A stretch of DNA of 64,000 nucleotides, taken from the IMG/VR virus record IMGVR_UViG_3300006167_000001; one strand, given 5' to 3'. Within the stretch, counting starts at the first letter, position 1, and the number at the start of each line of letters is the position of its first letter. The DNA is from a virus (taxonomy: Duplodnaviria > Heunggongvirae > Uroviricota > Caudoviricetes). Positions 1,040 through 51,538 of this stretch are shown piece after piece. Both the position numbers and the translations under genes were made by a program. The notes beneath the pieces were generated by a model that was not told where the DNA came from, did no database searches, and saw only the letters and a list, made by a program, of their open reading frames with translations.

Positions 1040-1078
1040 GAGCTTGCGGAAACGCAGGCTCTTTTCTTTTCACGGTAT
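1040..1078. terminator. bidirectional rho-independent terminator
   Basis: Hairpin gagcttgcg-gaaa-cgcaggctc followed by a T-run, between convergent genes 808..1029(+) and the integrase(-). Confidence 0.6.
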
Positions 1079-10271: not shown

Positions 10272-10339
10272 AGGCAGAGCCGCGTAACAGCGGCTTTTGT
10301 CTTTGTTCCGCAGATTTTACAAATCGTATTATGGAGAGG

Positions 10340-10411
10340 AGACAGTTAGCTCAGTTGGTAGAGCGCAACCTGAAATGGTTGAGGTCATCGGTTCGAGTCC
10401 GATACAGCCTC
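10340..10411 (+). tRNA. tRNA-Phe(GAA)-like element with aberrant anticodon loop (possible pseudo-tRNA)
   Basis: Canonical D arm TA-GCTC-AGTTGGTA-GAGC and T arm ATCGG-TTCGAGT-CCGAT. Anticodon stem CAACC/GGTTG encloses only 6 nt (TGAAAT; GAA at 10372-10374). Acceptor stem has 2 mismatches (A3-C70, A5-A68). Directly preceded by the conserved early motif. Confidence 0.5.
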
Positions 10412-10445
10412 TCTAATTTTTTCGTCGAGGAAAGGAGAAACAGGA

Positions 10446-12136: not shown

Positions 12137-12961
12137 ATGAAGCCTAAGCAAGGTCTGGTAAAGCAGACCGGAAAAGCCTTAAAAAAGGCGTCGCCGACAA
12201 TCTTGAGTATTCTCGGAGTTGTCGGCGTGGTTACAACGGCGGTTTTGGCCGTCAAAGCTACACCCAAAGCCCTTGAACGCATTGCAGACGCTAAAGAGGC
12301 TAAAAACCTCGAAAACGGCAAAGATTTGACCCGAATGGAGACGGTAGCAGCTTGCTGGCAATGCTATGTCCCTGCTGCCGCCACTGGAATCGCCACAATC
12401 GTGTGCATTATGGGCGCAAATGTCCTAAATCGGCGTCAACAGGCCTCTCTCACAAGTGCCTATACTCTACTTAACCGAACGTACCAGGACTATACAAAAT
12501 CGGTCAAGAACGTCTTCGGCGAAGAAGGTCATAAGCGCGTCTTGGAGGATATGGCCATTGAGCGGGTTCCTGAGAATCACACAATCTATACCGAAGGCAT
12601 GTTTGAATCTACTACCTTGGATTTTTGCATCCCCGAGGAGGAGCATCTGTTTTACGATGTTTACTCCAACCGGCAATTTGCTTCTACCATCGGAAAGGTG
12701 CTTCAGGCCGAATATCATCTGAACAGGATGTTCGCTCTGAATGGGAATGCCTCGCTCAATGACTTCTATAAGTATCTTGGACTCGATCCTGTTCCTGAAG
12801 GAGACGACATTGGATGGTGGGTCGATTTCGATAATGAGGCATATTGGGTCGAGTTCAATCATGCTGTCTCTTACATTGATGACGGGCCTGAACATCCGCA
12901 AGTCGAGTGCCTCATTATTGAGTTCCCGCAGCCGCCTGGTCTTCCGCCTCCCGAGGAGTAA
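12137..12961 (+). CDS. membrane protein, paralog family member 1 (VKATPKAL...CYVPAAxTG)
   Basis: 274 aa. Shares an N-terminal ~110-aa module with 13550 and 16028. Confidence 0.6.
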   Translation: MKPKQGLVKQTGKALKKASPTILSILGVVGVVTTAVLAVKATPKALERIADAKEAKNLENGKDLTRMETVAACWQCYVPAAATGIATIVCIMGANVLNRRQQASLTSAYTLLNRTYQDYTKSVKNVFGEEGHKRVLEDMAIERVPENHTIYTEGMFESTTLDFCIPEEEHLFYDVYSNRQFASTIGKVLQAEYHLNRMFALNGNASLNDFYKYLGLDPVPEGDDIGWWVDFDNEAYWVEFNHAVSYIDDGPEHPQVECLIIEFPQPPGLPPPEE

Positions 12962-13549: not shown

Positions 13550-14314
13550 GTGAACAAGCAAACCTTCGTGAAGGCTCTCAAAGATGTTCCGAAAATCCTG
13601 AAGAAGCACAGTCCTGAGCTTCTGACAGGCATCGGTATTGCGGGGATGATCTTCACGACCATCACAGCCGTCAAAGCAACACCCAAGGCCCTCCAGCTCG
13701 TGGATGAGCGAGAAATCAAGGAGGGAAAACGCCTGACCAACTCGGAGATCATCAAGACTACCTGGAAGTGCTATGTCCCCGCAGCCGTGACCGGTGTGTG
13801 CTCTATTGGTTGCCTGATTGGCGCCAGTTCAGTCAATGCCCGGCGAAATGCGGCACTCGCCACCGCCTACACCATCTCTGAAACTGCCCTCAAAGAGTAT
13901 AAGGAGAAGACTGTTGAGGTCGTTGGCGAAAAGAAGGAACAGGCGATTCGCGATGCAGTTGCCAGGGACAAGCTGGAGAAGGCCCAGGTGACCAGTCGTG
14001 AGTTCATCATCACCGGCAAAGGGGAAACTCCCTGTTTTGACCCGCTCACCAATTCCTGCTTCAAGGCGGACATTGAGATCCTGCGGAAGGCGGAAAACAT
14101 CCTGAATAAACGGATGCGGGACGAGATGGTGATAACTGTCAACGATTTCTTACAAGAAATCGGCCTCGACCCGTGTGACGATGCCATCGGCGAAAACATG
14201 GGCTGGGATATTGATAAGGGGTACATCGACTTGGATTTCAGCTCGCAGCTGGTCGAGGGCATTCCTTATCTTGTCATCGGACATCACAATCCGCCCCGCT
14301 ACATCGGACGGTAG
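13550..14314 (+). CDS. membrane protein, paralog family member 2
   Basis: GTG start after GAAAGGAG. N-terminal module VKATPKALQ...WKCYVPAAVTG. Confidence 0.6.
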   Translation: MNKQTFVKALKDVPKILKKHSPELLTGIGIAGMIFTTITAVKATPKALQLVDEREIKEGKRLTNSEIIKTTWKCYVPAAVTGVCSIGCLIGASSVNARRNAALATAYTISETALKEYKEKTVEVVGEKKEQAIRDAVARDKLEKAQVTSREFIITGKGETPCFDPLTNSCFKADIEILRKAENILNKRMRDEMVITVNDFLQEIGLDPCDDAIGENMGWDIDKGYIDLDFSSQLVEGIPYLVIGHHNPPRYIGR

Positions 14315-16027: not shown

Positions 16028-16990
16028 ATGAAGAAAAACGAAATCATGAAGTCTGTGGGCCTGACCTTCAACAAGATCGGCTTCCAGATTCAGAAGAAGA
16101 GCCCCGAGCTCCTGGTCGCTGCCGGTATCGCCGGCGTCGTTGTCAGCGCGGTCATGGCCTGTAAGGCCACTATCAAGGCCAGCGAGGCCGCCGAGGAGAC
16201 CAAAGAGACCATTGACGAGATCCACGAGGCCGAGGCCAACGGCATCACCAAGGCCGGCAAGGACTACTCCGCCGAGGACACCAAGAAGGATCTTACCACC
16301 GCCTACATCCAGACCGGCGTAAAGTACGCCAAGCTTTACGCTCCCGCTGTCATTTTGGGCGCTGCTTCCATCACATGTATTGTTGCCAGCCACCGTGTTC
16401 TGAAGAAGCGCAATATCGCCCTTGCGGCGGCCTATACGACCTTGGATAAGTCTTTCAAGGACTACCGTAGCCGGGTCATGGAGCGCTTTGGTGAGCAGGT
16501 TGAGAAAGAGATCCGCTACAACATCAAAGCCAAGGAGATCAAGAAGACCGTTGTCGACGAGAACGGCAAGAAGGAGAAAGTCAAAGAGGTGGTCGACGTA
16601 CCTGCCGTTGAAGGATGGGACCCCTCTCAGTACAGCCCCTACGCCAGGCGCTTTGATGAGGCCCATCCGCAGTGGACGAAGAATCCCGAAATGAACCTCT
16701 ACTACCTGAAGGCTCGGCAGGCGCAGGCCACCGATGCGCTCAGAGCTCGTGGACACCTGTTCCTAAACGAGGTGTATGATATGCTGGGCTTCCCCCGCAC
16801 TAAGGCTGGAGCTGTTGTGGGATGGCTGTACGATCCCAAGCGCCCCGAACTGGGCGATCATTACGTGGATTTCGGTATCTGCGAGATTCAGGATGGCGAC
16901 GGCTTCAAGGAATACTTGAAGTCCTATATCCTCGACTTCAACGTTGTTGGCGACATTACGAATGACATCGCCGATCATCAGTATATTTGA
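16028..16990 (+). CDS. membrane protein, paralog family member 3
   Basis: 320 aa. N-terminal module KKSPELLVAAGIAGVVVSAVMACKATIKA...YAPAVILGAASITCIVAS. Confidence 0.6.
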   Translation: MKKNEIMKSVGLTFNKIGFQIQKKSPELLVAAGIAGVVVSAVMACKATIKASEAAEETKETIDEIHEAEANGITKAGKDYSAEDTKKDLTTAYIQTGVKYAKLYAPAVILGAASITCIVASHRVLKKRNIALAAAYTTLDKSFKDYRSRVMERFGEQVEKEIRYNIKAKEIKKTVVDENGKKEKVKEVVDVPAVEGWDPSQYSPYARRFDEAHPQWTKNPEMNLYYLKARQAQATDALRARGHLFLNEVYDMLGFPRTKAGAVVGWLYDPKRPELGDHYVDFGICEIQDGDGFKEYLKSYILDFNVVGDITNDIADHQYI

Positions 16991-18586: not shown

Positions 18587-19141
18587 TTGACCAGAAACGA
18601 GCTTATCGATCAATATTTTGATTGGATGTACCAGCTCGTGGTCGACAACCGATATTCTAAGTCCTATCGTAAGCTGTTTGCCAGGCTGCACGATACGGAA
18701 TTCACATACACGATTCCGATGGACGGCAACCGGGCCGAAGACGGCATCGACCTTAGATATCGGTTCGGTCGCGAGTATTCCTATCCGGACGCTATGATTG
18801 CGTCATATTTGGATGACCGTCCGTGCAGCATTCTGGAGATGATGACGGCCCTTGCGATTCGTTGCGAAGAGCACATCATGGATGACCCCGACATTGGCAA
18901 CCGTACCGGACAATGGTTCTGGAGTATGTTGGTCAATCTTGGACTCGGTTCCATGTATGATGCTAAGTTTGACAGATACCGTGTTGACAGGATTCTTGAA
19001 CGACTCCTGGATCGCGAGTACGGACGTAATGGCAAGGGTGGTCTGTTTACCGTCAACAATGGCCGAGACATGCGGACAACGGAAATCTGGTATCAGATGA
19101 ACTATTACCTCAGTGAGGTTATTAGAGAAGGGAACACTTAA
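18587..19141 (+). CDS. hypothetical protein
   Basis: TTG start after GGGAGG. 184 aa. Confidence 0.45.
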   Translation: MTRNELIDQYFDWMYQLVVDNRYSKSYRKLFARLHDTEFTYTIPMDGNRAEDGIDLRYRFGREYSYPDAMIASYLDDRPCSILEMMTALAIRCEEHIMDDPDIGNRTGQWFWSMLVNLGLGSMYDAKFDRYRVDRILERLLDREYGRNGKGGLFTVNNGRDMRTTEIWYQMNYYLSEVIREGNT

Positions 19142-19142
19142 C

Positions 19143-19712
19143 ATGAAGAAAATTCCTACACTCTTTGAGCGTGTGTATGAAAACCACAAAATCGTCGGAA
19201 TAACCGAAGTGGTAACACCGGGTTTCGAGTGGGTGCTTGCCGGCGGTGGTATCAGCACTATCAAATATGATGGTAGCTGTTGTGCTATCATCAACGGCGA
19301 ACTCTACAAGCGTTATGATGCCAAGAAAGGCAAAAAACCTCCAGTTGGAGCGATTCCTTGTTGTGCCCCGGATTCCGTGACGGGTCACTGGCCCCATTGG
19401 GTAAAGTGCGATCGGAACAATCCGTCTGACAAATGGTTCTGGGCGGCGTATGATGCGTCTCCCTTGGCCAGAATGGATGGAACCTATGAGGCCATAGGTG
19501 TTCACTTCCAAGGAAATCCTTATCAGCAGCAGGTCGACTTACTCTATCCTCATGGCGTGGATATCTGCGAGGTGGACCGGAGCTTTGAGGGTATCCGGGC
19601 TTATCTGGAAAGTCACAACATCGAAGGAATTGTGTTTTGGCTTGATAATGAGCCTCAGTGTAAAATTAAAAGAAGCGATTTTGGCTTTAGTTGGCCGGCG
19701 AAAGGAGACTAA
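19143..19712 (+). CDS. RNA-ligase-like nucleotidyltransferase (KxDG motif)
   Basis: TIKYDGSCCAII contains the covalent-nucleotidyltransferase motif I KxDG. Size (~190 aa) fits minimal RNA-ligase family proteins. Confidence 0.45.
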   Translation: MKKIPTLFERVYENHKIVGITEVVTPGFEWVLAGGGISTIKYDGSCCAIINGELYKRYDAKKGKKPPVGAIPCCAPDSVTGHWPHWVKCDRNNPSDKWFWAAYDASPLARMDGTYEAIGVHFQGNPYQQQVDLLYPHGVDICEVDRSFEGIRAYLESHNIEGIVFWLDNEPQCKIKRSDFGFSWPAKGD

Positions 19713-19719
19713 GCTTAAC

Positions 19720-19968
19720 ATGGCAAAGAAGAAAAATATCGTCCCCATCAACTCTATGCAGGACCTGGTTGACTTGGTCAATCACAACTCCCAGGTTCTC
19801 GATCGGCGGACCAAAAAGCTGGTTAAGAGCGCCCGGAATATGAAGATTCTGTGCTTCATCGCGGTAGGCTATGCCATTTACACCGCCATCGAATGCCGGA
19901 AACAGGAAGAACAGCTCTATCAGCTTTCCATCAAGGTGAAGAAGCTGGAGCACAACGAAGGGGAGTAA
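19720..19968 (+). CDS. small membrane protein
   Basis: RBS GGAGACT. TM ILCFIAVGYAIYTAI. Confidence 0.45.
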   Translation: MAKKKNIVPINSMQDLVDLVNHNSQVLDRRTKKLVKSARNMKILCFIAVGYAIYTAIECRKQEEQLYQLSIKVKKLEHNEGE

Positions 19969-19976
19969 GCGATCCA

Positions 19977-22900
19977 ATGTTAGACTTCTTGATGATATCC
20001 ACGCGCCCAGGTAAGCGCGGCATCATCGAGATCTACCCAAGGTTTATCATCAAAAAAAGCAGCGACCTCATGATAAGAGGCGGAGACTTCTACGCTGTTT
20101 GGGTCGATGACCGTGGGTTATGGTCGACCGATGAACAAGATGCGGTTGACTTGATCGACCGCGAATTAGACCAATATGCTGAGGAGAACCGCCAGCGCTT
20201 TGACAACAACATTCGTGTCCTCCATATGTGGGATGCTGAGACTGGCATGATCGATTCATGGCATAAATACTGTCAGAAACAGATGAAAGACCAGTTTCAT
20301 ATGCTCGATGAAGAACTGATATTTGCCAACACCAAGACCGGAAAACGAGATTATGCCAGTAAGTCTTTGAGTTATCCTCTGGAACCTGGAGAGACACCGG
20401 CATGGGAGAAACTCATTAGCACTTTATATTCTCCAGAGGAGCGGCACAAGATCGAATGGTGTATTGGTTCTATCGTAACCGGCGCTTCCAAGAGGCTGCA
20501 AAAGTTCATGGTGTTCTACGGAGCCGTTGGCACCGGTAAAAGTACCATCATCAATGTTATCCAGCAACTCTTCGATGGGTACTACACCAGCTTCAATGCC
20601 AAAGATCTTGGCTCCTCCAGCAATGCTTTCGCATTGGAGGCGTTTCGTTCAAACCCGCTGGTGGCGATTCAGCACGACGGGGACCTCTCACGCATTGAGG
20701 ACAATACCCGCATCAATAGTTTGGTGTCTCACGAGCTGATGACCGTCAATGAGAAGTTTCGGTCCGCCTACTCAAACCGATTCAAGGCGTTCCTTATCAT
20801 GGGTACAAACAAGCCCGTAAAGATTACGGACGCCAAGTCAGGCATCATCCGTAGACTGATTGACGTGTCTCCTACGGGGGATAAGGTTCCGCCGGGAGAG
20901 TATCGCACGCTCACCAAGCAAATTCCTTTTGAGCTCGGCGGCATCGCCTATCACTGTCAGGAAGTATATTTGGAAGACCCTGACTATTACGATGACTATA
21001 TCCCTATCTCAATGCTCGGAGCCTCTAACGACTTCTACAACTTTGTCGTTGATTCTTACCATGTGTTTAAGCGGGAAGATGGTGTTTCTCTGAAATCCGC
21101 TTGGGAAATGTACAAGACCTATTGCGACGATGCGAAGGTTCTGTATCCCTTGTCTCGAATGATATTTAAGGAAGAATTGCGAAACTACTTCCGAGAATAC
21201 GAGGAGCGATTCAACATGGAGGATGGAACTCGTGTGCGGAGCTACTATCACGGGTTTCGGACAGAAAAGTTTGAGGAACCTGCTTCGGACGAAAAGGAGG
21301 GAACTGCAAGTGCGCGAAACACTGACCATCAACCAACGATTGAGTTCGCAGAAGGTATTTCTTCCGTCTTTGATTCTTGCTGCACAGATTGCCCGGCTCA
21401 GTATGCAGGAACCGAAGGAACCCCGCAGCGAAAATGGGAGAGAGTTCGCACTAAACTTTCGCAACTGGACACCTCCCAGCTCCACTATGTAAAGCTGCCG
21501 GAGAACCATATTGTCATCGACTTTGATATTCCGGACGAACAAGGTAATAAGTCCTTTGAACGGAATCTGGCCGAGGCGAGTAAATGGCCGGCGACATATG
21601 CAGAGGTAAGCAAGAGCGGCTGCGGCATCCATCTGCACTACATCTATTCCGGAGACGTGACTCGGCTCAGTCGGATTTATGATGACCATATTGAAATTAA
21701 GGTCTTCACCGGCAATAGCTCACTACGCCGGAAACTTTCCAAATGCAACAACCTGCCTATCGCTACGATAAGCTCTGGATTACCGTTGAAAGGGGAAAAC
21801 AACGTGGTAAATGCCAAAGTGGTTCAAAGCGAGAAAGGGCTTAGACTCCAGATTAAACGTAATCTCAACAAAGAGATCCATCCGGCTACTAAGCCCAGCA
21901 TCGACTTTATCTACAAAATTTTGACGGATGCGTATGAAAGCGGCATGACCTATGATGTCACCGATATGCGCAACGCCGTCCTGGCCTTTGCAGCTAATAG
22001 CAGCAACCAGGCGGAATACTGCATCAAGCTTGTGAACAAGATGCCGTTCAAATCCGCCGAAGATGGCCCGGGAGTAAAAAACGACGAGGCTAAGCTCGTC
22101 TTTTACGACGTGGAGGTGTTCCCGAACCTGTTCTTGGTGAACTGGAAAATTGAAGGACCCAACCAACCCGTTGTAAGGATGATTAACCCGAAGCCCCAGG
22201 AAATCGAGGAGCTGATGAAGTTCCGTCTCGTCGGGTTCAACTGCCGCCGGTACGACAACCATATTCTCTATGCTCGTCTGATGGGCTATACGGAAGAGCA
22301 GCTCTACAACCTCTCCCAGAAGATCATTAGCAGCGAGAAGAAAGCCAAGAGCAACAACTGCTTCTTCGGTGAGGCCTATAACGTCTCTTATACGGACGTT
22401 TATGACTTCTGCTCCAAGAAACAGAGCCTGAAGAAATGGGAGATCGAACTCGGCATTCACCATCAGGAGTTGGGACTTCCTTGGGATCAGCCTGTTCCCG
22501 AGCATTTGTGGCAAAAGGTTGCGGAATATTGCGACAACGATGTCATCGCAACCGAAGCAGTGTTCAATGCTCGCAAGGCTGACTTTGTGGCTCGTGAAAT
22601 CCTGGCTGACGTGGCCGGCATGACGGTCAATGACACCACCAACACTCTGACCACCAAAATTATATTTGGAGGGAACAAGAAACCCCAGGATCAGTTCAAC
22701 TACCGCGACATGGGTGACACGAACCAGATCTACGACCCCGACCGGGATCTCCCGTTCGAGATGGGACCGAAAGAGTTCGATGAGTTCACGGTTTTCGACA
22801 AGAAGGGTCGTCCCATCTTCCCGGGCTACAAGTTCGAGAATGGTAAGTCCATCTATCGCGGCGAGGAAGTTGGTGAAGGCGGATACGTCTATGCTGAGCC

Positions 22901-24116
22901 TGGTATGTACGGCAACATCGCTCTGCTGGACATCGCCAGTATGCACCCGTCAAGCATCATCGCCGAGGTCCTGTTCGGCCCTGAGTTCACCAAGCGGTTC
23001 CAGGAAATCCGGGATGCCCGTGTTGCCATCAAGCATAAGGACTTCGAGAAGGCGAAGAAAATGCTGAATGGCGCTTTGGCGAAGTACCTGACAGATGAAG
23101 GAGCAGCGGCTGACTTGGCTCAGGCTCTGAAGATCGCCATCAACTCGGTGTATGGCTTGACTTCGGCCAGCTTCGAGAACCCATTCCGGGACAACCGGAA
23201 CAAAGACAATATTGTTGCCAAGCGTGGAGCCCTGTTCATGGTCAACCTCAAACATGAGGTCCAGAAACGGGGCTTTACTGTTGCCCACATCAAGACGGAC
23301 TCCATCAAAATCCCCGATGCGACACCGGAGATCATCAAGTTCGTCATGGACTACGGCGAGAAGTACGGCTATACCTTTGAGCATGAGGCTACCTATGACC
23401 GGATGTGCCTCGTGAACAATGCTGTCTACATCGCCAAGTATAAGGACGGTAAGCACGCCGGCGAGTGGACGGCCACCGGCACCCAGTTCCAGATTCCCTA
23501 TGTGTTCAAGAAGTTGTTCAGCCGTGAAGAGATTACCTTTGAGGACATGTGCGAGACCAAGAGTGTGACCAGCGCACTCTATCTGGACATGAATGAGGAT
23601 TTGCCAGACATATCAGCGTATGAAAAAGAGCACGCGGCCCTTTGGAAAGATATTTGCAATGTACAGCTTCCCCATGATTCTGAGATGGAGCGAAAATGCG
23701 CAAGGGCTGAAGAACTGTCTCAGCTTATTGAACAGGGACACAACTACATCTTCATCGGAAAAGTCGGCCAGTTCTGTCCGATAAAGCCCGGATACAATGG
23801 CGGCCTGCTTCTGCGAGAGGTCATTGACAAAAAGACAGGCACAAAGAGCTATGCCGCAGCTACCGGGGCCAAGGGTTATCGCTGGCTGGAATCTGAGATG
23901 GTCAAACATCTGGAGAAAGAAGACGGTATTGACCGGAGCTACTATGACGCCATGGTTGATGCGGCCATCCATGATATTTCCCAGTACGGTGACTTCGAGT
24001 GGTTTGTGTCTGATGACCCCTACATTCAGTCGAATCCTTCGGACAATATCCCGCCCTGGGAGACCCCAGGCGAACCGTGGCAGGTGGAGTCGGCGACGGT
24101 ATTTGATGTGCGTTGA
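19977..24116 (+). CDS. SF3/P-loop helicase + AEP primase-polymerase (PrimPol) + family-B DNA polymerase (phi29-like) fusion protein
   Basis: Walker A FYGAVGTGKST. AEP motifs IVIDFDIPDE and SGCGIHLHY. Exo I FYDVEVF, Exo III YCDNDVIATEAVF. Pol motif A DIASMHPS, motif B KIAINSVYG, motif C IKTDSI, KxY AKYKDGK. Confidence 0.9.
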   Translation: MLDFLMISTRPGKRGIIEIYPRFIIKKSSDLMIRGGDFYAVWVDDRGLWSTDEQDAVDLIDRELDQYAEENRQRFDNNIRVLHMWDAETGMIDSWHKYCQKQMKDQFHMLDEELIFANTKTGKRDYASKSLSYPLEPGETPAWEKLISTLYSPEERHKIEWCIGSIVTGASKRLQKFMVFYGAVGTGKSTIINVIQQLFDGYYTSFNAKDLGSSSNAFALEAFRSNPLVAIQHDGDLSRIEDNTRINSLVSHELMTVNEKFRSAYSNRFKAFLIMGTNKPVKITDAKSGIIRRLIDVSPTGDKVPPGEYRTLTKQIPFELGGIAYHCQEVYLEDPDYYDDYIPISMLGASNDFYNFVVDSYHVFKREDGVSLKSAWEMYKTYCDDAKVLYPLSRMIFKEELRNYFREYEERFNMEDGTRVRSYYHGFRTEKFEEPASDEKEGTASARNTDHQPTIEFAEGISSVFDSCCTDCPAQYAGTEGTPQRKWERVRTKLSQLDTSQLHYVKLPENHIVIDFDIPDEQGNKSFERNLAEASKWPATYAEVSKSGCGIHLHYIYSGDVTRLSRIYDDHIEIKVFTGNSSLRRKLSKCNNLPIATISSGLPLKGENNVVNAKVVQSEKGLRLQIKRNLNKEIHPATKPSIDFIYKILTDAYESGMTYDVTDMRNAVLAFAANSSNQAEYCIKLVNKMPFKSAEDGPGVKNDEAKLVFYDVEVFPNLFLVNWKIEGPNQPVVRMINPKPQEIEELMKFRLVGFNCRRYDNHILYARLMGYTEEQLYNLSQKIISSEKKAKSNNCFFGEAYNVSYTDVYDFCSKKQSLKKWEIELGIHHQELGLPWDQPVPEHLWQKVAEYCDNDVIATEAVFNARKADFVAREILADVAGMTVNDTTNTLTTKIIFGGNKKPQDQFNYRDMGDTNQIYDPDRDLPFEMGPKEFDEFTVFDKKGRPIFPGYKFENGKSIYRGEEVGEGGYVYAEPGMYGNIALLDIASMHPSSIIAEVLFGPEFTKRFQEIRDARVAIKHKDFEKAKKMLNGALAKYLTDEGAAADLAQALKIAINSVYGLTSASFENPFRDNRNKDNIVAKRGALFMVNLKHEVQKRGFTVAHIKTDSIKIPDATPEIIKFVMDYGEKYGYTFEHEATYDRMCLVNNAVYIAKYKDGKHAGEWTATGTQFQIPYVFKKLFSREEITFEDMCETKSVTSALYLDMNEDLPDISAYEKEHAALWKDICNVQLPHDSEMERKCARAEELSQLIEQGHNYIFIGKVGQFCPIKPGYNGGLLLREVIDKKTGTKSYAAATGAKGYRWLESEMVKHLEKEDGIDRSYYDAMVDAAIHDISQYGDFEWFVSDDPYIQSNPSDNIPPWETPGEPWQVESATVFDVR

Positions 24117-25107: not shown

Positions 25108-25599
25108 ATGGCAAACCCCAGAGTCACCGAAAACATCACGATTGAGAACGCTCATATCCTGTTCCGGAATTTCTCCGGCCGGGAGAGCAAGTACAACCGC
25201 GCCGGACAGCGCAACTTCTGCGTCTACATCGACGACCCGGAGATGGCGCAGCGCCTCATCGACGACGGCTGGAACGTCCGGGTACGTCCGCCCCGCGAGG
25301 ACGGCGACGAGCCCCGCTACTACATCCAGGTGGCGGTCAGCTTCGACAACATCCCGCCCACGATCTACATGCTGACCAAGCGGAAGAAGGTCAAGCTGGA
25401 TGAGGAGTCCATCGCCACTTTGGACTTTGCGGAGATCCGCAATATTGACCTGACCATCCGCCCCTACAACTGGATCATCCAGGAGGGCACCAAGAACGAG
25501 AAGAGCGGCGTCAAGGCATATCTGCGGACCATGTACGTCGTCATCGACGAGGATGAGTTCGCGGAGAAGTACGCCAGCGACGAGTATCCTCAGGAGTAA
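25108..25599 (+). CDS. hypothetical protein
   Basis: 163 aa. GC-rich. RBS GAAAGGAG. Confidence 0.55.
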   Translation: MANPRVTENITIENAHILFRNFSGRESKYNRAGQRNFCVYIDDPEMAQRLIDDGWNVRVRPPREDGDEPRYYIQVAVSFDNIPPTIYMLTKRKKVKLDEESIATLDFAEIRNIDLTIRPYNWIIQEGTKNEKSGVKAYLRTMYVVIDEDEFAEKYASDEYPQE

Positions 25600-28061: not shown

Positions 28062-28513
28062 ATTTTAAGTCAGGCACTATTCTCTACGGGAAAGAATGAT
28101 TGGGCAACGCCGCAGGAGCTCTTTGATGAGCTTGATGCCGAGTTCCATTTCACGCTTGATCCCCGCGCAACTCCGGAAACGGCGAAGTGCGCTAAATTCT
28201 ATACGGAAGAAGACAACGGACTTGCCCAGGATTGGACTGGAGAGACGGTGTTCTGCAATCCTCCCTACTCTGACCAACAGCAGACCGAATGGGTCAAAAA
28301 GTGCTACGAACATGGAGTCCGGGGGGGGGGGTAGCAGTTATGCTGATCCCGGCCAGAACCGACACAAAACGCTTCCATGAATACATTTATGGAAACGCGG
28401 AAATACGCTTTATCAAAGGCCGGCTGAAGTTTGGTGGATGCGAAAACTCTGCGCCCTTCCCCTCCATGATCGTTGTATTCGGAAAAGAACCTACTGAAAG
28501 GAGGCCGCGGCCA
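28062..28513 (+). pseudogene. phage Dam-family N6-adenine DNA methyltransferase interrupted by an 11-nt poly-G tract (frameshift); no canonical start codon
   Basis: N-part DWATPQELFDELDAEFHFTLDP...FCNPPYS...KKCYEHGVRGGG* stops right after G11 (28321-28331). The next frame continues VAVMLIPARTDTKRFHEYIYGNAEIRFIKGRLKFG...SMIVVF and runs without a stop into the helicase. G9 or G12 would restore the frame. Confidence 0.6.
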
Positions 28514-29755
28514 ATGGGACGCATAAATCTCCGTGACTACCAGCTCGACGCTATCAAGCAGATGAAAAACGGATGCATCCTGTGCGGCGGCGTCGGAAGC
28601 GGTAAATCCCGCACTTCCCTTGCATACTACTACGATTTGCAAGGTGGCAATCTTCTCGCATCGGATGAAGTCGCCATGAAGAATCCGCAAAATCTCTATA
28701 TCATCACGACAGCCCGGAAACGGGATACCTGCGAGTGGGAAGGGGAACTGGCTCCGTTCCTCCTCTCTACTCATCCTGAGTGCAACTACTACAAGAACAC
28801 TGTGGTTGTGGACTCATGGAATAACATTGGAAAATACACAGAAGTCAAGAACGCATTCTTTATATTTGACGAGCAGCGGGTAGTTGGTTATGGCGCGTGG
28901 ACAAAAGCCTTTCTAAAGATCACCAAGGCCAACAACTGGATTCTACTGTCCGCTACACCTGGGGACACTTGGCAGGACTATATTCCTGTCTTCATTGCCA
29001 ACGGGTTCTATCGCAATAAAACTGACTTTGTCGACCAGCATGTCAACTATGACTGGCGGGCTAAATACCCGAAAATCGACAGCTATCGAAACACTGGTCG
29101 TTTAATTCGGTTACGCAACAGCATCCTCGTAAACATGGACTTCAAGCGGCAAACCGTTTCTCATCACGAGGACATCCCCGTTCCGTATGATATTTCCAAA
29201 TACAAAGACATCATGCGGAAACGTTGGAATCCTTGGGAGGACCGTCCAATCGAAACGGCAGCGGAATTGTGTATGGCACTTCGGAGAGTTGTCAATTCTG
29301 ATGACGCCCGGTCGGTTGCTGTGCTCGAAATCTTGGAGGATCATCCCAAGGCCATCATCTTTTACAGCTACGACTATGAACTGGAGATTCTCCGCTCCCT
29401 CGGATATTCGGAGGGTACGGAGGTCGCAGAGTGGAACGGCCATAAGCATCAAGAGATCCCGACCGGAGACAAATGGGTTTACTTGGTTCAGTACACTGCT
29501 GGCTGCGAGGGGTGGAATTGCATCACGACTGACACCATTATATTCTACTCTCAGCAGTATTCGTATAAGGTGGCCACGCAGGCTGCTGGACGAATTGACC
29601 GCCTCACAACACCGTACCATGACCTGCACTACTATCATCTGAAAAGCTTCTCTGGAATTGACCTCGCCATCAGCAAGGCTCTCAAACAGAAGAAGAATTT
29701 CAACGAGGGTAAGTTTGTGGGATGGACTACAAAGCCAATGCCAAGAGCCGCATAA
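28514..29755 (+). CDS. SF2 (SNF2/DEAD-like) helicase
   Basis: RBS GAAAGGAGG. Walker A GGVGSGKS. Motif II FIFDEQ. Motif III LSATP. Motif VI QAAGRIDR. Confidence 0.8.
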   Translation: MGRINLRDYQLDAIKQMKNGCILCGGVGSGKSRTSLAYYYDLQGGNLLASDEVAMKNPQNLYIITTARKRDTCEWEGELAPFLLSTHPECNYYKNTVVVDSWNNIGKYTEVKNAFFIFDEQRVVGYGAWTKAFLKITKANNWILLSATPGDTWQDYIPVFIANGFYRNKTDFVDQHVNYDWRAKYPKIDSYRNTGRLIRLRNSILVNMDFKRQTVSHHEDIPVPYDISKYKDIMRKRWNPWEDRPIETAAELCMALRRVVNSDDARSVAVLEILEDHPKAIIFYSYDYELEILRSLGYSEGTEVAEWNGHKHQEIPTGDKWVYLVQYTAGCEGWNCITTDTIIFYSQQYSYKVATQAAGRIDRLTTPYHDLHYYHLKSFSGIDLAISKALKQKKNFNEGKFVGWTTKPMPRAA

Positions 29756-29828
29756 TTTGCAAGTCCTATTACGGAGGAGATGCTACATAGCGTCTTCTTT
29801 TATATTTCATGGAAGGAGGCGAAATGCC

Positions 29829-31127
29829 TTGCAAAAGCAGCCTGACCTTGAAGTCAAGGTATTCTTTGACACTTTGTCCGGCACAGCATCCATCAAGGCA
29901 AAAAAGCAACTCCTCGCTGAGAAGCGAGATGACGGAAACGTCAAAAAATTCTTGGACTATCTGTTGAATCCGTTCTTCATCACAGGTATCTCTGAGAAAA
30001 AGATTAGCAAGGCGGCAGTCAAAGAAGCGACCATTCAGTTCACTTCGTTCCACGAGCTAATGCCTTACATTCGGCAGAACCATACCGGCACTGATGAAGT
30101 GCTGGCAAATGTCCAGGCCTTCTTAGAAGGTGCGGAGGACGAACTGCGGTCGTTCTACATGGGCATTATCACCAAGACCATTCGCATTGGGTGTGATGTC
30201 AAGACTGTAAACGACGCATTTAGGTTCGAGCTCATTCCTCAATGGGAAGTGCAGCAGGCTTATCAGATCGGCAAGCTGAAAATGAATGAGAACGAGTGGT
30301 TCAGTTTGAGTCAAAAGCTCAATGGCGTTCGCGGTACCTACTTTGAGGAAAAGCTCATCAGCCGGCAGGGAAAAGAGTTCAATGGACTGGACCATATCCT
30401 GGCAGACATCCAAAACCTTATCCCGGATTGTGAGAATTGGGTACTTGACGGAGAGCTGATTCGCAAGAACATCGACCATGTCTCTGATAACGAGAACTTT
30501 CGGCTGACTACCGGAATCATCAATCAGGAAGATGGCGATAAGAGTCTGATTCAAATGGTGATCTTTGATATTTTGCCGAAGTCCGAGTTCCTCTACGGCG
30601 AGAGCAAATTGCGATATCGAGATCGCCTTGAACAGCTAAAGAAGTTGAAACGGCAGATACGGAGACTGGGTCTGTCTGCTCTTCGTGTTGTGGATATTCT
30701 CTATACCGGAACCGATATGTCCATGATTTCGCCGTGTCTGGACCGCATGATTGCCGAAGGCAAAGAGGGCATGATGCTGAACCGTAACTGTAAATACTTC
30801 AGAAGACGTCACAATGGCATTCTGAAAGTGAAGCAGTTCTATACGGTAGATCTTGAGGTCGTAGACCTTGAAGAGGGGACGGGGCGACTGACCGGAACTT
30901 TGGGGGCATTCGTTGTGCGCTACAAAGGTAACTACCTACGGGTCGGCTCTGGCATGACCGATGAGCAGCGGAAGCTGTTCTGGAGCGACGGTATCAGTTT
31001 GATCGGGCGTGTCATTGAAGTCAAGTATAAGGACGAAAGCCTTGACAAACGAACAGGTCTTTACAGCCTGCAATTTCCGATCTTTGTCCAACTCCGTGAA
31101 CTCGGAAAACAAGAAAGCTACGACTGA
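29829..31127 (+). CDS. ATP-dependent DNA ligase (motif I variant KLNG)
   Basis: TTG start 9 nt after AGGAGG. Motif I KLNGVRG. Motif V EGMMLN. OB-fold region LKVKQFYTVDLEVVD...LGAFVVRY...VGSGMTDEQR. Confidence 0.75.
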   Translation: MQKQPDLEVKVFFDTLSGTASIKAKKQLLAEKRDDGNVKKFLDYLLNPFFITGISEKKISKAAVKEATIQFTSFHELMPYIRQNHTGTDEVLANVQAFLEGAEDELRSFYMGIITKTIRIGCDVKTVNDAFRFELIPQWEVQQAYQIGKLKMNENEWFSLSQKLNGVRGTYFEEKLISRQGKEFNGLDHILADIQNLIPDCENWVLDGELIRKNIDHVSDNENFRLTTGIINQEDGDKSLIQMVIFDILPKSEFLYGESKLRYRDRLEQLKKLKRQIRRLGLSALRVVDILYTGTDMSMISPCLDRMIAEGKEGMMLNRNCKYFRRRHNGILKVKQFYTVDLEVVDLEEGTGRLTGTLGAFVVRYKGNYLRVGSGMTDEQRKLFWSDGISLIGRVIEVKYKDESLDKRTGLYSLQFPIFVQLRELGKQESYD

Positions 31128-31148: not shown

Positions 31149-31637
31149 ATGAGCTGTTGGACTTATGTAACGGGCGTCATCGAAGTCGATACTTGTGCCA
31201 GGAGTGATGCGGAAGCCATGTATCTCGCTCAAACTGTCGTCAACCATCTGCCACGGATTACTGGCTCGGAAAGAAGCGCAGAGTTGTACTTGTCACAACC
31301 GAATGGTTACTGTTCGTCGTGCAACGTTGACGAATTTGACCAACCCAGTAATCTTTACGATGACAGACATTTCCGGATGTTCACTACTCAGGACAGAGTT
31401 TTGATTACGATTCACGGGAATCTCCGCGACCGCCTATTCAAACAAACTTTACATGAGACTACAAAAATGCTGACAAGACTATCGTCCAGACTTTGGGTGC
31501 GAGAGTGTCTTGTTCGGGTAAAGTCAGATATGGGCGAGACATTTATATTTGACAATCCGGAATGGGTTCGCAACAGAGATCTTACAAATTGGACTCAAAA
31601 AATATTAAGAAAGGATGGCGATCCAAATGATGGATGA
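31149..31637 (+). CDS. hypothetical protein
   Basis: 162 aa. RBS AGGAAAGGAG. Confidence 0.5.
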   Translation: MSCWTYVTGVIEVDTCARSDAEAMYLAQTVVNHLPRITGSERSAELYLSQPNGYCSSCNVDEFDQPSNLYDDRHFRMFTTQDRVLITIHGNLRDRLFKQTLHETTKMLTRLSSRLWVRECLVRVKSDMGETFIFDNPEWVRNRDLTNWTQKILRKDGDPNDG

Positions 31638-32238
31638 CTATGATATTCTCCCTCGCATCGGGCATTTCAACGATTTGATGGAACCGGCTGCACATTTGTT
31701 TCCGGCCGGTTTTACTCAGGACTTGAAAGCAAACGGCTTCTTTACGGCTCCGGCCAGCACCAAGTATCATGGTGCTTTTGAGGGCGGCCTGTTTGAGCAC
31801 AGCCGGAATGTGACGCAAGTCCTCGTTGCTCTCACCAAGGACAATGGGCTGACATGGCAACGGCCTGAGTCACCTTACATCGTTGGGATGTTCCATGACC
31901 TGTGTAAAATCGACTTGTATCAGCATCCAATGTCGGATATGGTTTTGCACACATGGCGTCCTGACGGGGAAGAAGAAATCCGCAGCGTGGATATGTCCAG
32001 ATGGGAACACAATCCTGATACTCTGCTCAAAGGGCATGGCGATAAGTCCATAATGCTGCTCTCCCAGTATATGCAGCTCACCCTGGAAGAGATCCTATGC
32101 ATTCGATACCATATGGGCGCATTTGTGGATAGAAACGAGTGGAATGACTATACGCGAGCCATCCACCAGTTCGTCACTGTTCTCTGGACGCACCATGCCG
32201 ACATGATTGCCTCACACATCCTTGAGGATGCGAGGTGA
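31615..32238 (+). CDS. HD-domain phosphohydrolase (candidate dNTP triphosphohydrolase, DatZ-like?)
   Basis: H...H (HGAFEGGLFEHSRNV) and the HD pair in GMFHDLCK. Start could be 31627/31630. Confidence 0.65.
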   Translation: MAIQMMDDYDILPRIGHFNDLMEPAAHLFPAGFTQDLKANGFFTAPASTKYHGAFEGGLFEHSRNVTQVLVALTKDNGLTWQRPESPYIVGMFHDLCKIDLYQHPMSDMVLHTWRPDGEEEIRSVDMSRWEHNPDTLLKGHGDKSIMLLSQYMQLTLEEILCIRYHMGAFVDRNEWNDYTRAIHQFVTVLWTHHADMIASHILEDAR

Positions 32239-32781: not shown

Positions 32782-32963
32782 AGTCCGACTTCTCTATGAT
32801 GACGGCAGTCAAGGTGAGCTCGACATGACGAAGGCGAAAGTTTCTACGAGCGAGGCCGCCTTTGTAGTCGGCATGACTTTGAAGCAAGCCAAGATGCGGC
32901 TCGGTATCAAGAGTTGACAGCTTTGGGCCGAACATTATATTCTGTCAGATGGGAGGTGAAAAA

Positions 32964-33749
32964 ATGATCGGTGCAATTATCGGCGACATCGTTGGTTCTC
33001 GGTTCGAGCGGGCAAACTGCAAATCTACTAAATTCGAGCTGTTTATAAAAAGATGTTCATTTACTGATGATACCGTGATGACGCTTGCGATTGCAAAAGC
33101 GCTGCTTGAAAGCGACAATGATTGGAGCAGACTGAGAGAAAATGCCGTGAAGTGTATGCAGGAAATCGGTAGGAGGTACCCAAACTGCGGATACGGTCAG
33201 ATGTTCTATCTGTGGCTCCATAAGCGAAACCCAAAGCCCTATAACAGCTTCGGAAATGGGGCGGCCATGAGAGTAAGTCCGGTAGCATATGTGGCTGAAA
33301 CAATAGAACAATGCATCGAGCTTTCCGACATAGTCACCGGAGTTAGCCACAATCATCCAGAAGGGTTAAAAGGCGCTCAGGCTGCCGCAGTTGCAACCTG
33401 GGCTGCATTGCAGGAAATGCCGAAACAGGAAATTCGAGAGTTGATCGAAGATCGCTTTTACGACCTGAACTTCACGATTGATGAGATACGCCCGAAGTAC
33501 CGTTTCGATGCATCCTGCCAAGGCAGTGTACCACAAGCAATTAAAGCGTTCCTGGAATCCGACGATTTTGAGAGCGCGATACGACTCGCTGTCTCTATTG
33601 GAGGTGATAGTGACACGATTGCCGCCATTGCGGGAGGAATCGCAGAGGCATACTACGGTATCCCGGAACATATCAAAATGCAGGCCATAAAATACTTGCC
33701 AGAGGATCTACGCGACATCATGGTTGAGTTTGAAGTGGCCTACTATTAA
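32964..33749 (+). CDS. ADP-ribosylglycohydrolase family protein
   Basis: GAIIGDIVGSRFE, FTDDT, GNGAAMRVSPVA, GGDSDTIAAIAGGIAEAYYG (ARH signature). Confidence 0.8.
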   Translation: MIGAIIGDIVGSRFERANCKSTKFELFIKRCSFTDDTVMTLAIAKALLESDNDWSRLRENAVKCMQEIGRRYPNCGYGQMFYLWLHKRNPKPYNSFGNGAAMRVSPVAYVAETIEQCIELSDIVTGVSHNHPEGLKGAQAAAVATWAALQEMPKQEIRELIEDRFYDLNFTIDEIRPKYRFDASCQGSVPQAIKAFLESDDFESAIRLAVSIGGDSDTIAAIAGGIAEAYYGIPEHIKMQAIKYLPEDLRDIMVEFEVAYY

Positions 33750-51440: not shown

Positions 51441-51538
51441 CACATACAGAAGCTTACTGGTGGCGGTGTTCCTACACAGGGATGCCGCCGCTCTTGTTTT
51501 TATTCCAAAATTATATTTTTCCAAAGGGGTATTGCCAC

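What the first reader, a model, noticed from the sequence alone, without database searches (positions are those of the whole stretch)
19977..24116. Single 1380-aa replicase combining SF3 P-loop helicase, AEP PrimPol and phi29-like PolB, with the helicase N-terminal to the primase
The domain order P-loop NTPase (GAVGTGKST), then AEP (IVIDFDIPDE and SGCGIHLHY), then PolB exonuclease (DVE / YCDNDVIATEAVF), then PolB polymerase (DIASMHPS / KIAINSVYG / IKTDSI / AKYK) is unusual. In P4/D5-type primase-helicases the AEP domain precedes the helicase, and PolB is normally a separate gene. The polymerase motifs are closest to protein-primed phi29-type enzymes, yet a primase is fused. This could be a self-priming 'all-in-one' replisome core.
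Basis: partly seen in the sequence, partly recalled or inferred. Interest (0 to 1): 0.65.

Follow-up and report, generated by a model that had tools for sequence, protein, structure and literature searches.

The report
Known helicase-primase-polymerase phage replicase (HelPrimPolB)
This 1379-residue gene really does fuse a helicase, a primase and a proofreading DNA polymerase into one phage replication enzyme, but this fusion family was described in 2016, named HelPrimPolB in 2020 and characterised biochemically in 2025, so this is an ordinary new member.

Summary
Window 19977-24116 (+) is one uninterrupted 1379-aa ORF with the domain order SF3/D5-like helicase, AEP primase plus a small alpha-helical domain, then family B polymerase with a 3'-5' exonuclease. 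The architecture is not new. Kazlauskas et al. 2016 described it using gp55 of Lactococcus phage 1706. Kazlauskas et al. 2020 named the group HelPrimPolB. Zhang et al. 2025 showed that GP55 has helicase, RNA primase, polymerase and exonuclease activities and synthesises DNA de novo. PHROG 4210 matches the window protein end to end (2048 bits). 252 phage genomes carry full-length homologs, and two metagenome searches each saturated at 8000 hits. Every residue whose mutation inactivated GP55 is conserved here (K188, D517, Y659, F671, D711/E713, D985). It lacks TPR1/TPR2-sized insertions and scores far better against Pol II and stand-alone siphovirus PolBs than against phi29. It belongs to the RNA/DNA-primed PolBs. 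The cited "AKYK" motif is not conserved. Verdict: a new member of a known, characterised kind, of low interest. Two family-wide quirks are unexplained: a motif A Tyr-to-His change and KTDS in place of DTDS in motif C. Both AlphaFold models failed, so folds were not verified here.

The parts
19977..24116 (+). Complete HelPrimPolB replicase gene (1379 aa plus stop)
   Evidence: Intact ORF. PHROG 4210 matches aa 2-1353 to profile positions 1-1294 of 1304, 2047.7 bits. 64% identical to the Faecalibacterium phage FP_oengus 'helicase/polymerase' and 42% to the characterised GP55 of phage 1706.
19961..19966 (+). Shine-Dalgarno-like GGGGAG upstream of the ATG
   Evidence: Read directly from the sequence. 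It overlaps the end of the upstream ORF 19498..19968.
19977..21296 (+). SF3 (D5/P4-like) helicase region, aa 1-440. The P-loop core (Pfam DUF5906) is aa 180-293 = nt 20514-20855.
   Evidence: Pfam PF19263 at 6.3e-12. TIGR01613 P4-family primase C-terminal domain at 2.9e-13, below its cutoff. The family profile hits the helicase half of the SaPI primase-helicase 7ola at 3e-7 and NrS-1 6k9c at 2e-4. hhalign to the NrS-1 helicase gives probability 79%. Walker A K188, Walker B D234/D236, sensor-1 N278 and R292/R293 are invariant. GP55 K189 (K189A abolishes unwinding) maps to K188.
21396..21776 (+). AEP (PriS-like / Prim-Pol) primase catalytic core, about aa 474-600. Motif I IVIDFD is nt 21510-21527; motif II SGCGIHLH is nt 21615-21638.
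   Evidence: D515, D517, H552 and H554 are invariant. GP55 D509 (D509A abolishes priming) maps to D517. Pfam Prim-Pol PF09250 matches below threshold in 8 of 10 family members, best E 0.012. phrog_3022 'DNA primase' at E 0.002. hhalign aligns motif II to NrS-1 prim-pol, E 4.5e-4, probability 33%. The fold was not verified here: the AlphaFold model has pLDDT 44.6.
21819..22052 (+). Alpha-helical domain (aHD), about aa 615-692, the primase accessory domain
   Evidence: Four helices are predicted at aa 619-631, 642-654, 661-674 and 679-688 in a low-confidence model. This fits the 'two pairs of parallel helices' described for the GP55 aHD. GP55 Y655 and F667 (essential for priming) map to Y659 and F671, conserved in 9 of 10 sequences.
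22089..22616 (+). PolB 3'-5' exonuclease domain, about aa 705-880 (ExoI nt 22101-22121, ExoII nt 22233-22265, ExoIII nt 22524-22562)
   Evidence: D711, E713, Y759, D760, Y851 and D855 are invariant. GP55 D712/E714 (the double mutant lacks exonuclease activity) map to D711/E713. No N-terminal domain precedes ExoI.
22617..24113 (+). PolB polymerase domain, about aa 881-1379 (motif A nt 22929-22955, motif B nt 23130-23156, motif C nt 23283-23306)
   Evidence: The family profile hits E. coli Pol II at 5.8e-9, then archaeal PolB and Pol alpha. phrog_1252 at 3e-48. GP55 D949 (D949A abolishes polymerase activity) maps to D985. Motif spacing A-to-B is 67 and B-to-C is 56, like Pol II at 74/54.
22719..22817 (+). 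Clade-specific insertion 1 (aa 915-947) between ExoIII and motif A
   Evidence: Absent from GP55 and the actinophage homologs, and partly present in FP_oengus. Present in the close metagenomic relatives. Function unknown.
23607..23735 (+). Clade-specific insertion 2 (aa 1211-1253) in the C-terminal (thumb-side) region, predicted as a helical hairpin
   Evidence: Absent from all 9 phage homologs in alignment A1. It forms two helices and is the highest-confidence stretch of an otherwise poor model. Function unknown.

Best explanation
The gene encodes a member of the HelPrimPolB family, the single-polypeptide replicase of a siphovirus lineage that includes Faecalibacterium phage FP_oengus, Lactococcus phage 1706 and a large actinophage supercluster. 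By homology to the characterised GP55, it most likely works as follows. The N-terminal SF3 helicase unwinds duplex DNA using NTP hydrolysis; in GP55 this is UTP/dTTP-dependent and supports strand displacement. The central AEP domain, together with the adjacent alpha-helical domain, makes short RNA primers de novo on single-stranded template. The C-terminal family B polymerase extends those primers with dNTPs and proofreads with its 3'-5' exonuclease. Priming and extension use two separate active sites, and in GP55 they can cooperate in trans within a dimer. The replicase is RNA-primed, not protein-primed. Shown here: the intact ORF, the domain order, conservation of every residue shown to be essential in GP55, and the affinity of the polymerase to RNA/DNA-primed PolBs. 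Inferred by homology (42% identity to GP55): the four enzymatic activities, the nucleotide preferences, dimerisation and primer hand-off.
For: End-to-end match to PHROG 4210. Full-length homologs in 252 phage genomes. Two metagenome searches saturated at 8000 hits, with listed proteins of near-identical length. The architecture is described in PMC4889955, named HelPrimPolB in PMC7544198, and its activities are demonstrated for GP55 in PMC12205980. Residue mapping GP55 to window: K189 to K188, D509 to D517, Y655 to Y659, F667 to F671, D712/E714 to D711/E713, D949 to D985. The five catalytic positions are invariant across 10 homologs and the two aHD positions are conserved in 9 of 10. The helicase profile hits the SaPI and NrS-1 primase-helicase structures. 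The PolB profile hits Pol II, archaeal PolB and Pol alpha. No second polymerase, primase or terminal protein was found among about 40 neighbouring ORFs. An SSB/annealing protein, an SF2 helicase and a DNA ligase lie downstream, as in 1706 and FP_oengus. The lineage's second signature gene, a YonO-like RNA polymerase, is also in the window.
Against: No biochemistry exists for this protein; function is transferred from a homolog at 42% identity. The AEP fold could not be verified independently here: no PDB sequence hit, only sub-threshold Pfam and PHROG matches, a weak local hhalign match and low-confidence AlphaFold models. Two clade-specific insertions (aa 915-947 and 1211-1253) are absent from GP55 and have unknown effect. 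GP55's unusual properties (UTP/dTTP dependence, the CCAAC priming site, dimer rather than hexamer) may not transfer. CCAAC is not enriched in the window: 62 and 59 occurrences against 58 and 63 expected.
Confidence: 0.9

Rival explanations
1. A protein-primed (phi29-like) replicase: the PolB module starts DNA synthesis from a terminal protein, and the fused primase is accessory or vestigial.
For: Like phi29 DNAP, the PolB module has no N-terminal domain before ExoI, and ExoI-to-motif A spacing is similar (274 vs 237). The GP55 authors aligned its motifs with phi29 and reported strand displacement and very long products.
Against: The family profile scores only 7.6 bits on phi29 DNAP, versus 38.1 on Pol II and 91.8 on a stand-alone siphovirus PolB. 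No phi29 chain appears in the PDB profile search at E<=1. Motif A-to-B is 67 and B-to-C is 56, versus 134 and 75 in phi29, leaving no room for TPR1 or TPR2. The published phylogeny places the group in the EpsilonN-like clade of RNA/DNA-primed PolBs. No terminal protein was recognised in the window. GP55 makes and extends RNA primers, and its strand displacement depends on the helicase domain.
Confidence: 0.02
2. An artefactual fusion: a sequencing or assembly error removed a stop or frameshift, merging a separate primase-helicase gene and PolB gene.
For: Stand-alone compact PolBs with an adjacent primase gene do exist in related siphoviruses, for example Staphylococcus phage HHU-22.
Against: The same continuous ORF occurs in 252 independently sequenced phage genomes, and many independent metagenomic contigs carry proteins of about the same length. 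GP55 was purified as a full-length 1317-aa protein. The primase+aHD segment is never found outside the fusion in 50,697 phage records.
Confidence: 0.01
3. A partly degenerate replicase in which one module, most plausibly the AEP primase or the helicase, is inactive in this clade, with the host or another phage protein supplying that function.
For: The AEP domain matches known AEP models only weakly. An additional SF2 helicase is encoded downstream at 28289-29755. Motif C lacks the first Asp and motif A lacks the canonical Tyr.
Against: All residues shown to be essential in GP55 are conserved here and across the family. The KTDS and SxHP variants are also present in the fully active GP55. Mean column identity of the AEP+aHD segment (59%) is as high as in the helicase (59%) and higher than in the PolB segment (49%), which suggests purifying selection.
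Confidence: 0.05

Closest known systems
GP55 of Lactococcus phage 1706 (Zhang, Lu, Zhu, Huang 2025, NAR, 'four-in-one replicase'; PMC12205980)
   Same: Identical domain order: SF3 helicase, PriS-like AEP, aHD, PolB exonuclease, PolB polymerase. The two align over their full length (42% identity). All mutationally defined essential residues are conserved. They share the same motif variants, KTDS in motif C and S-(L/M)-H-P in motif A.
   Different: The window protein is 62 residues longer, with two insertions absent from GP55 (aa 915-947 and 1211-1253). GP55 in turn has its own C-terminal insertion. The hosts differ (gut Oscillospiraceae-type versus Lactococcus). No biochemistry exists for this protein.
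HelPrimPolB group of family B polymerases (Kazlauskas et al. 2016, PMC4889955; 2020, PMC7544198)
   Same: The defining architecture is a PolB fused at its N-terminus to an SF3 helicase and a PrimPol domain. Motif C and KxY are divergent, and the group is prevalent in metagenomes. All of this is seen here.
   Different: Nothing material; the window protein fits the group definition.
Faecalibacterium phage FP_oengus 'helicase/polymerase' (AUV56521.1)
   Same: It is the closest isolated-phage homolog: 59.8% identity by tblastn and 64% in the alignment, over the full length. The gene neighbourhood is similar, with an integrase at the left end, phrog_2152/DUF6353-type paralogs upstream, and SSB and helicase genes downstream.
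   Different: FP_oengus lacks insertion 2 and has a different version of insertion 1. There is no nucleotide-level similarity.
D5/P4-type and NrS-1-type primase-helicases
   Same: They share a D5-like SF3 helicase core (DUF5906, TIGR01613) and an AEP catalytic domain in one polypeptide.
   Different: The order is reversed here (helicase first). A PolB is fused. The usual PriL or helix-bundle accessory domain is replaced by the unrelated aHD. In NrS-1 a single AEP site both primes and polymerises, whereas here two active sites divide the work.
phi29 DNA polymerase (protein-primed PolB)
   Same: A compact PolB with no N-terminal domain before ExoI, and with the canonical Exo I-III and motif A-C order.
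   Different: There are no TPR1/TPR2-sized insertions (spacing 67/56 versus 134/75). Profile similarity is very weak (7.6 bits). No terminal protein was found. The homolog is RNA-primed.

Membership tests
HelPrimPolB replicases (GP55-like) | A single ORF with the order SF3 helicase, AEP primase, PolB | tested here: met
   Intact 1379-aa ORF. Full-length match to PHROG 4210. Full-length alignment to GP55, FP_oengus and 7 other members.
HelPrimPolB replicases (GP55-like) | Conservation of the residues shown by mutagenesis to be essential in GP55 (K189, D509, Y655, F667, D712/E714, D949) | tested here: met
   They map to K188, D517, Y659, F671, D711/E713 and D985. The five catalytic positions are invariant in 10 of 10 sequences and the two aHD positions are conserved in 9 of 10.
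HelPrimPolB replicases (GP55-like) | Divergent motif C and KxY relative to other PolBs (Kazlauskas 2020) | tested here: met
   Motif C is an invariant H-(I/V)-K-T-D-S instead of DTDS. The KxY position reads N-x-A-V-(Y/I).
HelPrimPolB replicases (GP55-like) | Helicase, RNA primase, DNA polymerase and 3'-5' exonuclease activities, with de novo DNA synthesis | not testable with these tools
   Demonstrated only for GP55. Needs biochemistry on this protein.
SF3 helicases (D5/P4-like) | Walker A, Walker B, motif C/sensor-1 Asn and an arginine finger in an AAA+-like core | tested here: met
   GxxGxGK(S/G)T at 182-190, D234/D236, N278 and R292/R293 are all invariant. Pfam DUF5906 is above its cutoff (46.6 vs 27.6 bits). 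PDB profile hit to 7ola at 3e-7.
SF3 helicases (D5/P4-like) | Hexameric ring assembly | not testable with these tools
   GP55 was reported to be mainly dimeric by SEC-MALS. Not known for this protein.
Archaeo-eukaryotic primase (AEP / Prim-Pol) superfamily | Catalytic motifs I (hhhDhD) and II (sxH), plus a third acidic motif | tested here: met
   IVIDFD (D515, D517) and SGxG(I/V)HLH (H552, H554) are invariant. Candidate third acidic residues D560 and E573 are also invariant. Which residue serves as motif III was not resolved.
Archaeo-eukaryotic primase (AEP / Prim-Pol) superfamily | Significant profile or fold similarity to known AEPs | tested here: inconclusive
   Pfam Prim-Pol matches only below threshold (best E 0.012, 8 of 10 members). 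phrog_3022 at E 0.002. hhalign to NrS-1 has probability 33% over 39 columns. No PDB sequence hit. The AlphaFold model has pLDDT 44.6, too low for a fold search. A published structural superposition with NrS-1 N300 exists for GP55.
RNA/DNA-primed family B polymerases (rPolB, EpsilonN-like clade) | ExoI-III and motifs A-C in canonical order, with closer similarity to primer-dependent PolBs than to pPolB | tested here: met
   The motifs were located and are conserved. Pol II, archaeal PolB and Pol alpha are the top PDB profile hits. Bit scores are 38.1 (Pol II) versus 7.6 (phi29). Clade placement within EpsilonN-like is taken from the literature and was not recomputed.
Protein-primed family B polymerases (phi29-like, pPolB) | TPR1 and TPR2 insertions in the polymerase domain | tested here: not met
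   Motif A-to-B is 67 aa and B-to-C is 56 aa, versus 134 and 75 in phi29 and 74 and 54 in Pol II.
Protein-primed family B polymerases (phi29-like, pPolB) | An associated terminal protein gene | tested here: not met
   No terminal protein was recognised among about 40 ORFs scanned with PHROGs. Genome ends are not in the window, so terminal repeats could not be examined.

The most novel reading that the evidence does not exclude
Two active-site substitutions are invariant across the family. The motif A 'steric gate' Tyr of canonical PolBs is replaced by His (S-M/L-H-P). The first Asp of motif C is replaced by Lys (KTDS). These might give the PolB module unusual sugar selectivity or a special ability to take over very short RNA primers from the fused primase. 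The two gut-clade-specific insertions (aa 915-947 and 1211-1253) might change processivity or oligomerisation relative to GP55. None of this was addressed in the GP55 study as far as I read it. The steric-gate role of that Tyr is from my own knowledge of RB69 and phi29 polymerases and was not tested here.
Probability: 0.12. Interest if true: 0.4.

Novelty: new member of a known kind. Interest (0 to 1): 0.15.

Why it matters
It matters little as a discovery. The fusion was recognised in 2016, named in 2020, and shown in 2025 to be a self-sufficient helicase-primase-polymerase-exonuclease. The check does show that the first-stage reader correctly recognised a real and mechanistically interesting architecture from raw sequence. 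It also corrects the phi29 attribution. The window adds a gut Oscillospiraceae-type representative about 42% identical to the characterised enzyme, with two clade-specific insertions. That could be useful for comparative enzymology or for one-enzyme DNA amplification, but it is not a new kind of system.

Tried and rejected
(1) AlphaFold2 on the AEP+aHD segment (aa 441-700) and the PolB segment (aa 695-1379). I therefore ran no fold searches, and fold-level verification of the AEP and PolB domains was not achieved here.

(2) A second homolog search with the family profile, meant to diversify the MSA. It returned the same gut clade.

(3) A PDB profile search with the AEP segment. It returned no meaningful hit; only a spurious lactococcin immunity protein at E 0.24.

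(4) The PurZ / Z-genome idea for the adenylosuccinate-synthetase-like gene at 41576-42796. I rejected membership: 29 bits against the NCBIfam PurZ model (cutoff 300), and the nearest phage homologs are the mycobacteriophage 'PurA-like' genes.

(5) Enrichment of GP55's CCAAC priming motif in the window. None was found: 62 and 59 observed versus 58 and 63 expected.

(6) Nucleotide-level identification of the phage. There is no near match in the phage collection.

(7) The alternative upstream GTG start at 19851. I rejected it because homologs begin at the ATG-equivalent position and an SD precedes the ATG.

Full report
**Observation**

Window 19977-24116 (+) is a single uninterrupted ORF of 1379 codons. 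The ATG follows the stop codon of the upstream gene directly. It is preceded by a GGGGAG Shine-Dalgarno about 10 nt away. A longer GTG-initiated reading from 19851 exists mechanically. It is not supported, because all homologs begin at the position equivalent to the ATG.

**What it is**

Pfam recognises only DUF5906, the D5-like SF3 helicase P-loop core, at aa 180-293. PHROGs settles the identity. Family phrog_4210 ('DNA polymerase', a 1304-position profile) matches aa 2-1353 end to end with 2047.7 bits. Secondary hits explain the parts:
- The C-terminal (helicase) halves of D5-like 'DNA primase' families match aa 114-443.
- A primase family matches aa 509-576 weakly.
- A PolB family matches aa 701-1159.

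A tblastn search of 50,697 phage genomes found 334 records, 252 of them covering at least 80% of the protein:
- Faecalibacterium phage FP_oengus, 59.8% identity, annotated 'helicase/polymerase'.
- Many Gordonia, Arthrobacter, Streptomyces, Microbacterium and Rhodococcus phages, 44-51% identity, annotated 'DNA primase/polymerase'.
- Lactococcus phages 1706 and P162, 37-40% identity.

Two searches of the metagenome protein collection each saturated at 8000 hits. The listed proteins are 74-99% identical and of near-identical length. One comes from an Oscillospiraceae genome. The gene neighbourhood is conserved on related contigs.

**Literature**

The architecture is already in the literature.
[quoted passage not shown] They also note that in 94% of primase-helicase fusions the primase is N-terminal.
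- Kazlauskas et al. (2020, PMC7544198) named the polymerase group 'HelPrimPolB'. They describe it as a divergent member, with the crAss-like group, of the EpsilonN-like clade of RNA/DNA-primed PolBs. Its motif C and KxY differ strongly from other PolBs, and it is prevalent in metagenomes.
- Zhang, Lu, Zhu and Huang (2025, PMC12205980) purified GP55 and characterised it.
  - Its helicase is UTP/dTTP-dependent, and K189A is dead.
  - Its RNA primase is killed by D509A, starts with GTP, and prefers the site 5'-CCAAC-3'.
  - Priming requires a new alpha-helical domain, in which Y655 and F667 are essential.
  - Its PolB is killed by D949A, and the D712A/E714A double mutant lacks the 3'-5' exonuclease.
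  - It synthesises DNA de novo on ssM13, shows helicase-dependent strand displacement, is dimeric, and has over 1000 homologs, mostly from human-associated phages.
- Koert et al. (bioRxiv 10.1101/842583) show that the actinophage supercluster, the 1706-like phages and FP_oengus share this gene and a YonO-like RNA polymerase. That RNA polymerase is also present in the window at 60843-63560.

**Does the window protein have what GP55 has?**

I aligned it with GP55, FP_oengus and seven other phage members (A1). It is 42% identical to GP55 and 64% to FP_oengus. Every experimentally essential GP55 residue maps to an identical residue:

| GP55 | Window protein |
|---|---|
| K189 | K188 |
| D507 / D509 | D515 / D517 |
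| Y655 | Y659 |
| F667 | F671 |
| D712 / E714 | D711 / E713 |
| D949 | D985 |

The catalytic positions are invariant in all ten sequences. The two aHD positions are conserved in nine of ten.

Other invariant features are:
- SF3 helicase: Walker A, Walker B (D234/D236), sensor-1 N278 and R292/R293.
- AEP: motifs I and II.
- PolB: ExoI-III and motifs A-C.

It is not conserved, and the conserved block at the KxY position reads N-x-A-V-(Y/I). This agrees with the published remark that KxY is divergent in this group.

**Independent domain tests**

- **Helicase.** The family profile of the helicase segment hits the helicase half of the SaPI primase-helicase structure 7ola (3e-7) and the NrS-1 primase 6k9c (2e-4). 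hhalign to the NrS-1 helicase domain gives 79% probability.
- **PolB.** The PolB segment profile hits E. coli Pol II (5.8e-9), then archaeal PolBs and Pol alpha.
- **AEP.** The AEP+aHD segment has no PDB sequence hit. Support consists of sub-threshold Pfam Prim-Pol matches in 8 of 10 members, phrog_3022, and a local hhalign match of motif II to NrS-1 prim-pol (E 4.5e-4, probability 33%). AEP membership at the motif level is met. At the profile or fold level it is inconclusive in my hands. It rests on the published GP55 mutagenesis and structural superposition.
- **Failed models.** Both AlphaFold jobs failed to give usable models (pLDDT 44.6 and 39.7), because only close homologs could be supplied. 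I did not run fold searches on them.
- **Distribution of the primase module.** The primase+aHD segment is found only inside this fusion family in the phage collection, even at E<=10 (253 of 254 records).

**Is the polymerase phi29-like?**

No. Four results point the same way.
- Bit scores against the family PolB profile:

| Reference polymerase | Bits |
|---|---|
| Staphylococcus phage HHU-22 stand-alone PolB | 91.8 |
| E. coli Pol II | 38.1 |
| crAss-like PolB | 16.1 |
| phi29 DNAP | 7.6 |

- phi29 chains are absent from the PDB profile hits at E<=1.
- Motif spacing shows no room for the TPR1 and TPR2 insertions that define protein-primed PolBs:

| Protein | Motif A to B (aa) | Motif B to C (aa) |
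|---|---|---|
| Window protein | 67 | 56 |
| GP55 | 73 | 56 |
| E. coli Pol II | 74 | 54 |
| phi29 DNAP | 134 | 75 |

- No terminal protein was recognised among about 40 ORFs scanned.

The only phi29-like trait is the absence of an N-terminal domain before ExoI. The stand-alone siphovirus PolBs share this trait. In HHU-22, for example, ExoI is at residue 11 and a primase gene lies next door.

**Mechanism**

By homology, the helicase unwinds duplex DNA. The AEP+aHD module lays down short RNA primers. The PolB extends them and proofreads. The two polymerisation active sites are separate and may cooperate between subunits. What is shown here is the intact fusion, the conserved catalytic residues and the family assignment. 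The activities themselves, the nucleotide preferences and the oligomeric state are inferred from GP55. CCAAC, GP55's preferred priming site, is not enriched in the window. This neither supports nor contradicts transfer of that detail.

**Differences from known members**

- Two insertions are specific to this gut clade: aa 915-947, partly shared with FP_oengus, and aa 1211-1253, predicted as a helical hairpin.
- Two family-wide substitutions are present in GP55 as well. The motif A Tyr, which is the steric gate in other PolBs to my knowledge, is an invariant His. Motif C reads KTDS rather than DTDS. Their consequences are unexplored, and they form the only modestly novel angle.

**Verdict**

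It is wrong about phi29 affinity and about one motif. The system is a new member of a known and now biochemically characterised family, so interest is low.

Noticed in passing
window 60843-63560 (+): A 905-aa protein matches phrog_4291 ('RNA-dependent RNA polymerase', 1194 bits) and has HTH-like matches near its C-terminus. It corresponds to the YonO/crAss-like single-subunit RNA polymerase that Koert et al. proposed as a signature gene of the actinophage / 1706 / FP_oengus lineage.
   Followed up: partly
window 41576-42796 (+): An adenylosuccinate-synthetase-like gene whose PHROG label suggests PurZ (2-aminoadenine genomes). NCBIfam gives PurA 111 bits (cutoff 402) and PurZ only 29 bits (cutoff 300). 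The nearest phage homologs are the 'PurA-like' genes of mycobacteriophage cluster C and of Rhizobium phages. It is therefore a divergent PurA-like enzyme of unknown specificity, not a demonstrated PurZ.
   Followed up: yes
window 10339-10413 (+): ARAGORN calls a tRNA of undetermined identity with a four-base anticodon (gaaa). It could be a frameshift-suppressor-like tRNA or a mis-call.
   Followed up: no
window 12137-12961, 13550-14314, 16028-16990 (+): Three paralogs of phrog_2152 lie upstream of the replicase. The corresponding genes on related contigs carry Pfam DUF6353. The triple arrangement is conserved on those contigs, which additionally carry IS110-family transposases that the window lacks.
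   Followed up: partly
window 22929-22955 and 23283-23306 (+): Within the PolB active site, motif A reads S-M-H-P-S (His where canonical PolBs have the steric-gate Tyr) and motif C reads K-T-D-S (Lys where canonical PolBs have the first Asp). Both are invariant across 10 family members, including the active GP55.
   Followed up: partly
window 1070-2305 (-) and the whole window: A tyrosine integrase sits at the left end, as in FP_oengus. The next 62 kb are almost entirely + strand early, replication and nucleotide-metabolism genes. These include an RNA-ligase-like gene (19113-19712), an SSB/annealing protein (25108-25599), a methylase-helicase (28289-29755), an ATP-dependent DNA ligase (29658-31127), an HD phosphohydrolase (31615-32238), an ADP-ribosylglycohydrolase (32949-33749) and NrdD (51482-53737). 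No structural genes were recognised among the ORFs scanned, so the element is probably much larger than FP_oengus (58 kb). Related contigs reach 95-146 kb.
   Followed up: partly
window 33819-35864 (+): A 681-aa protein with a full-length, very strong match to phrog_1735 (897 bits, unknown function; the corresponding gene on related contigs carries Pfam DUF8224). It is conserved next to the ADP-ribosylglycohydrolase on those contigs.
   Followed up: no
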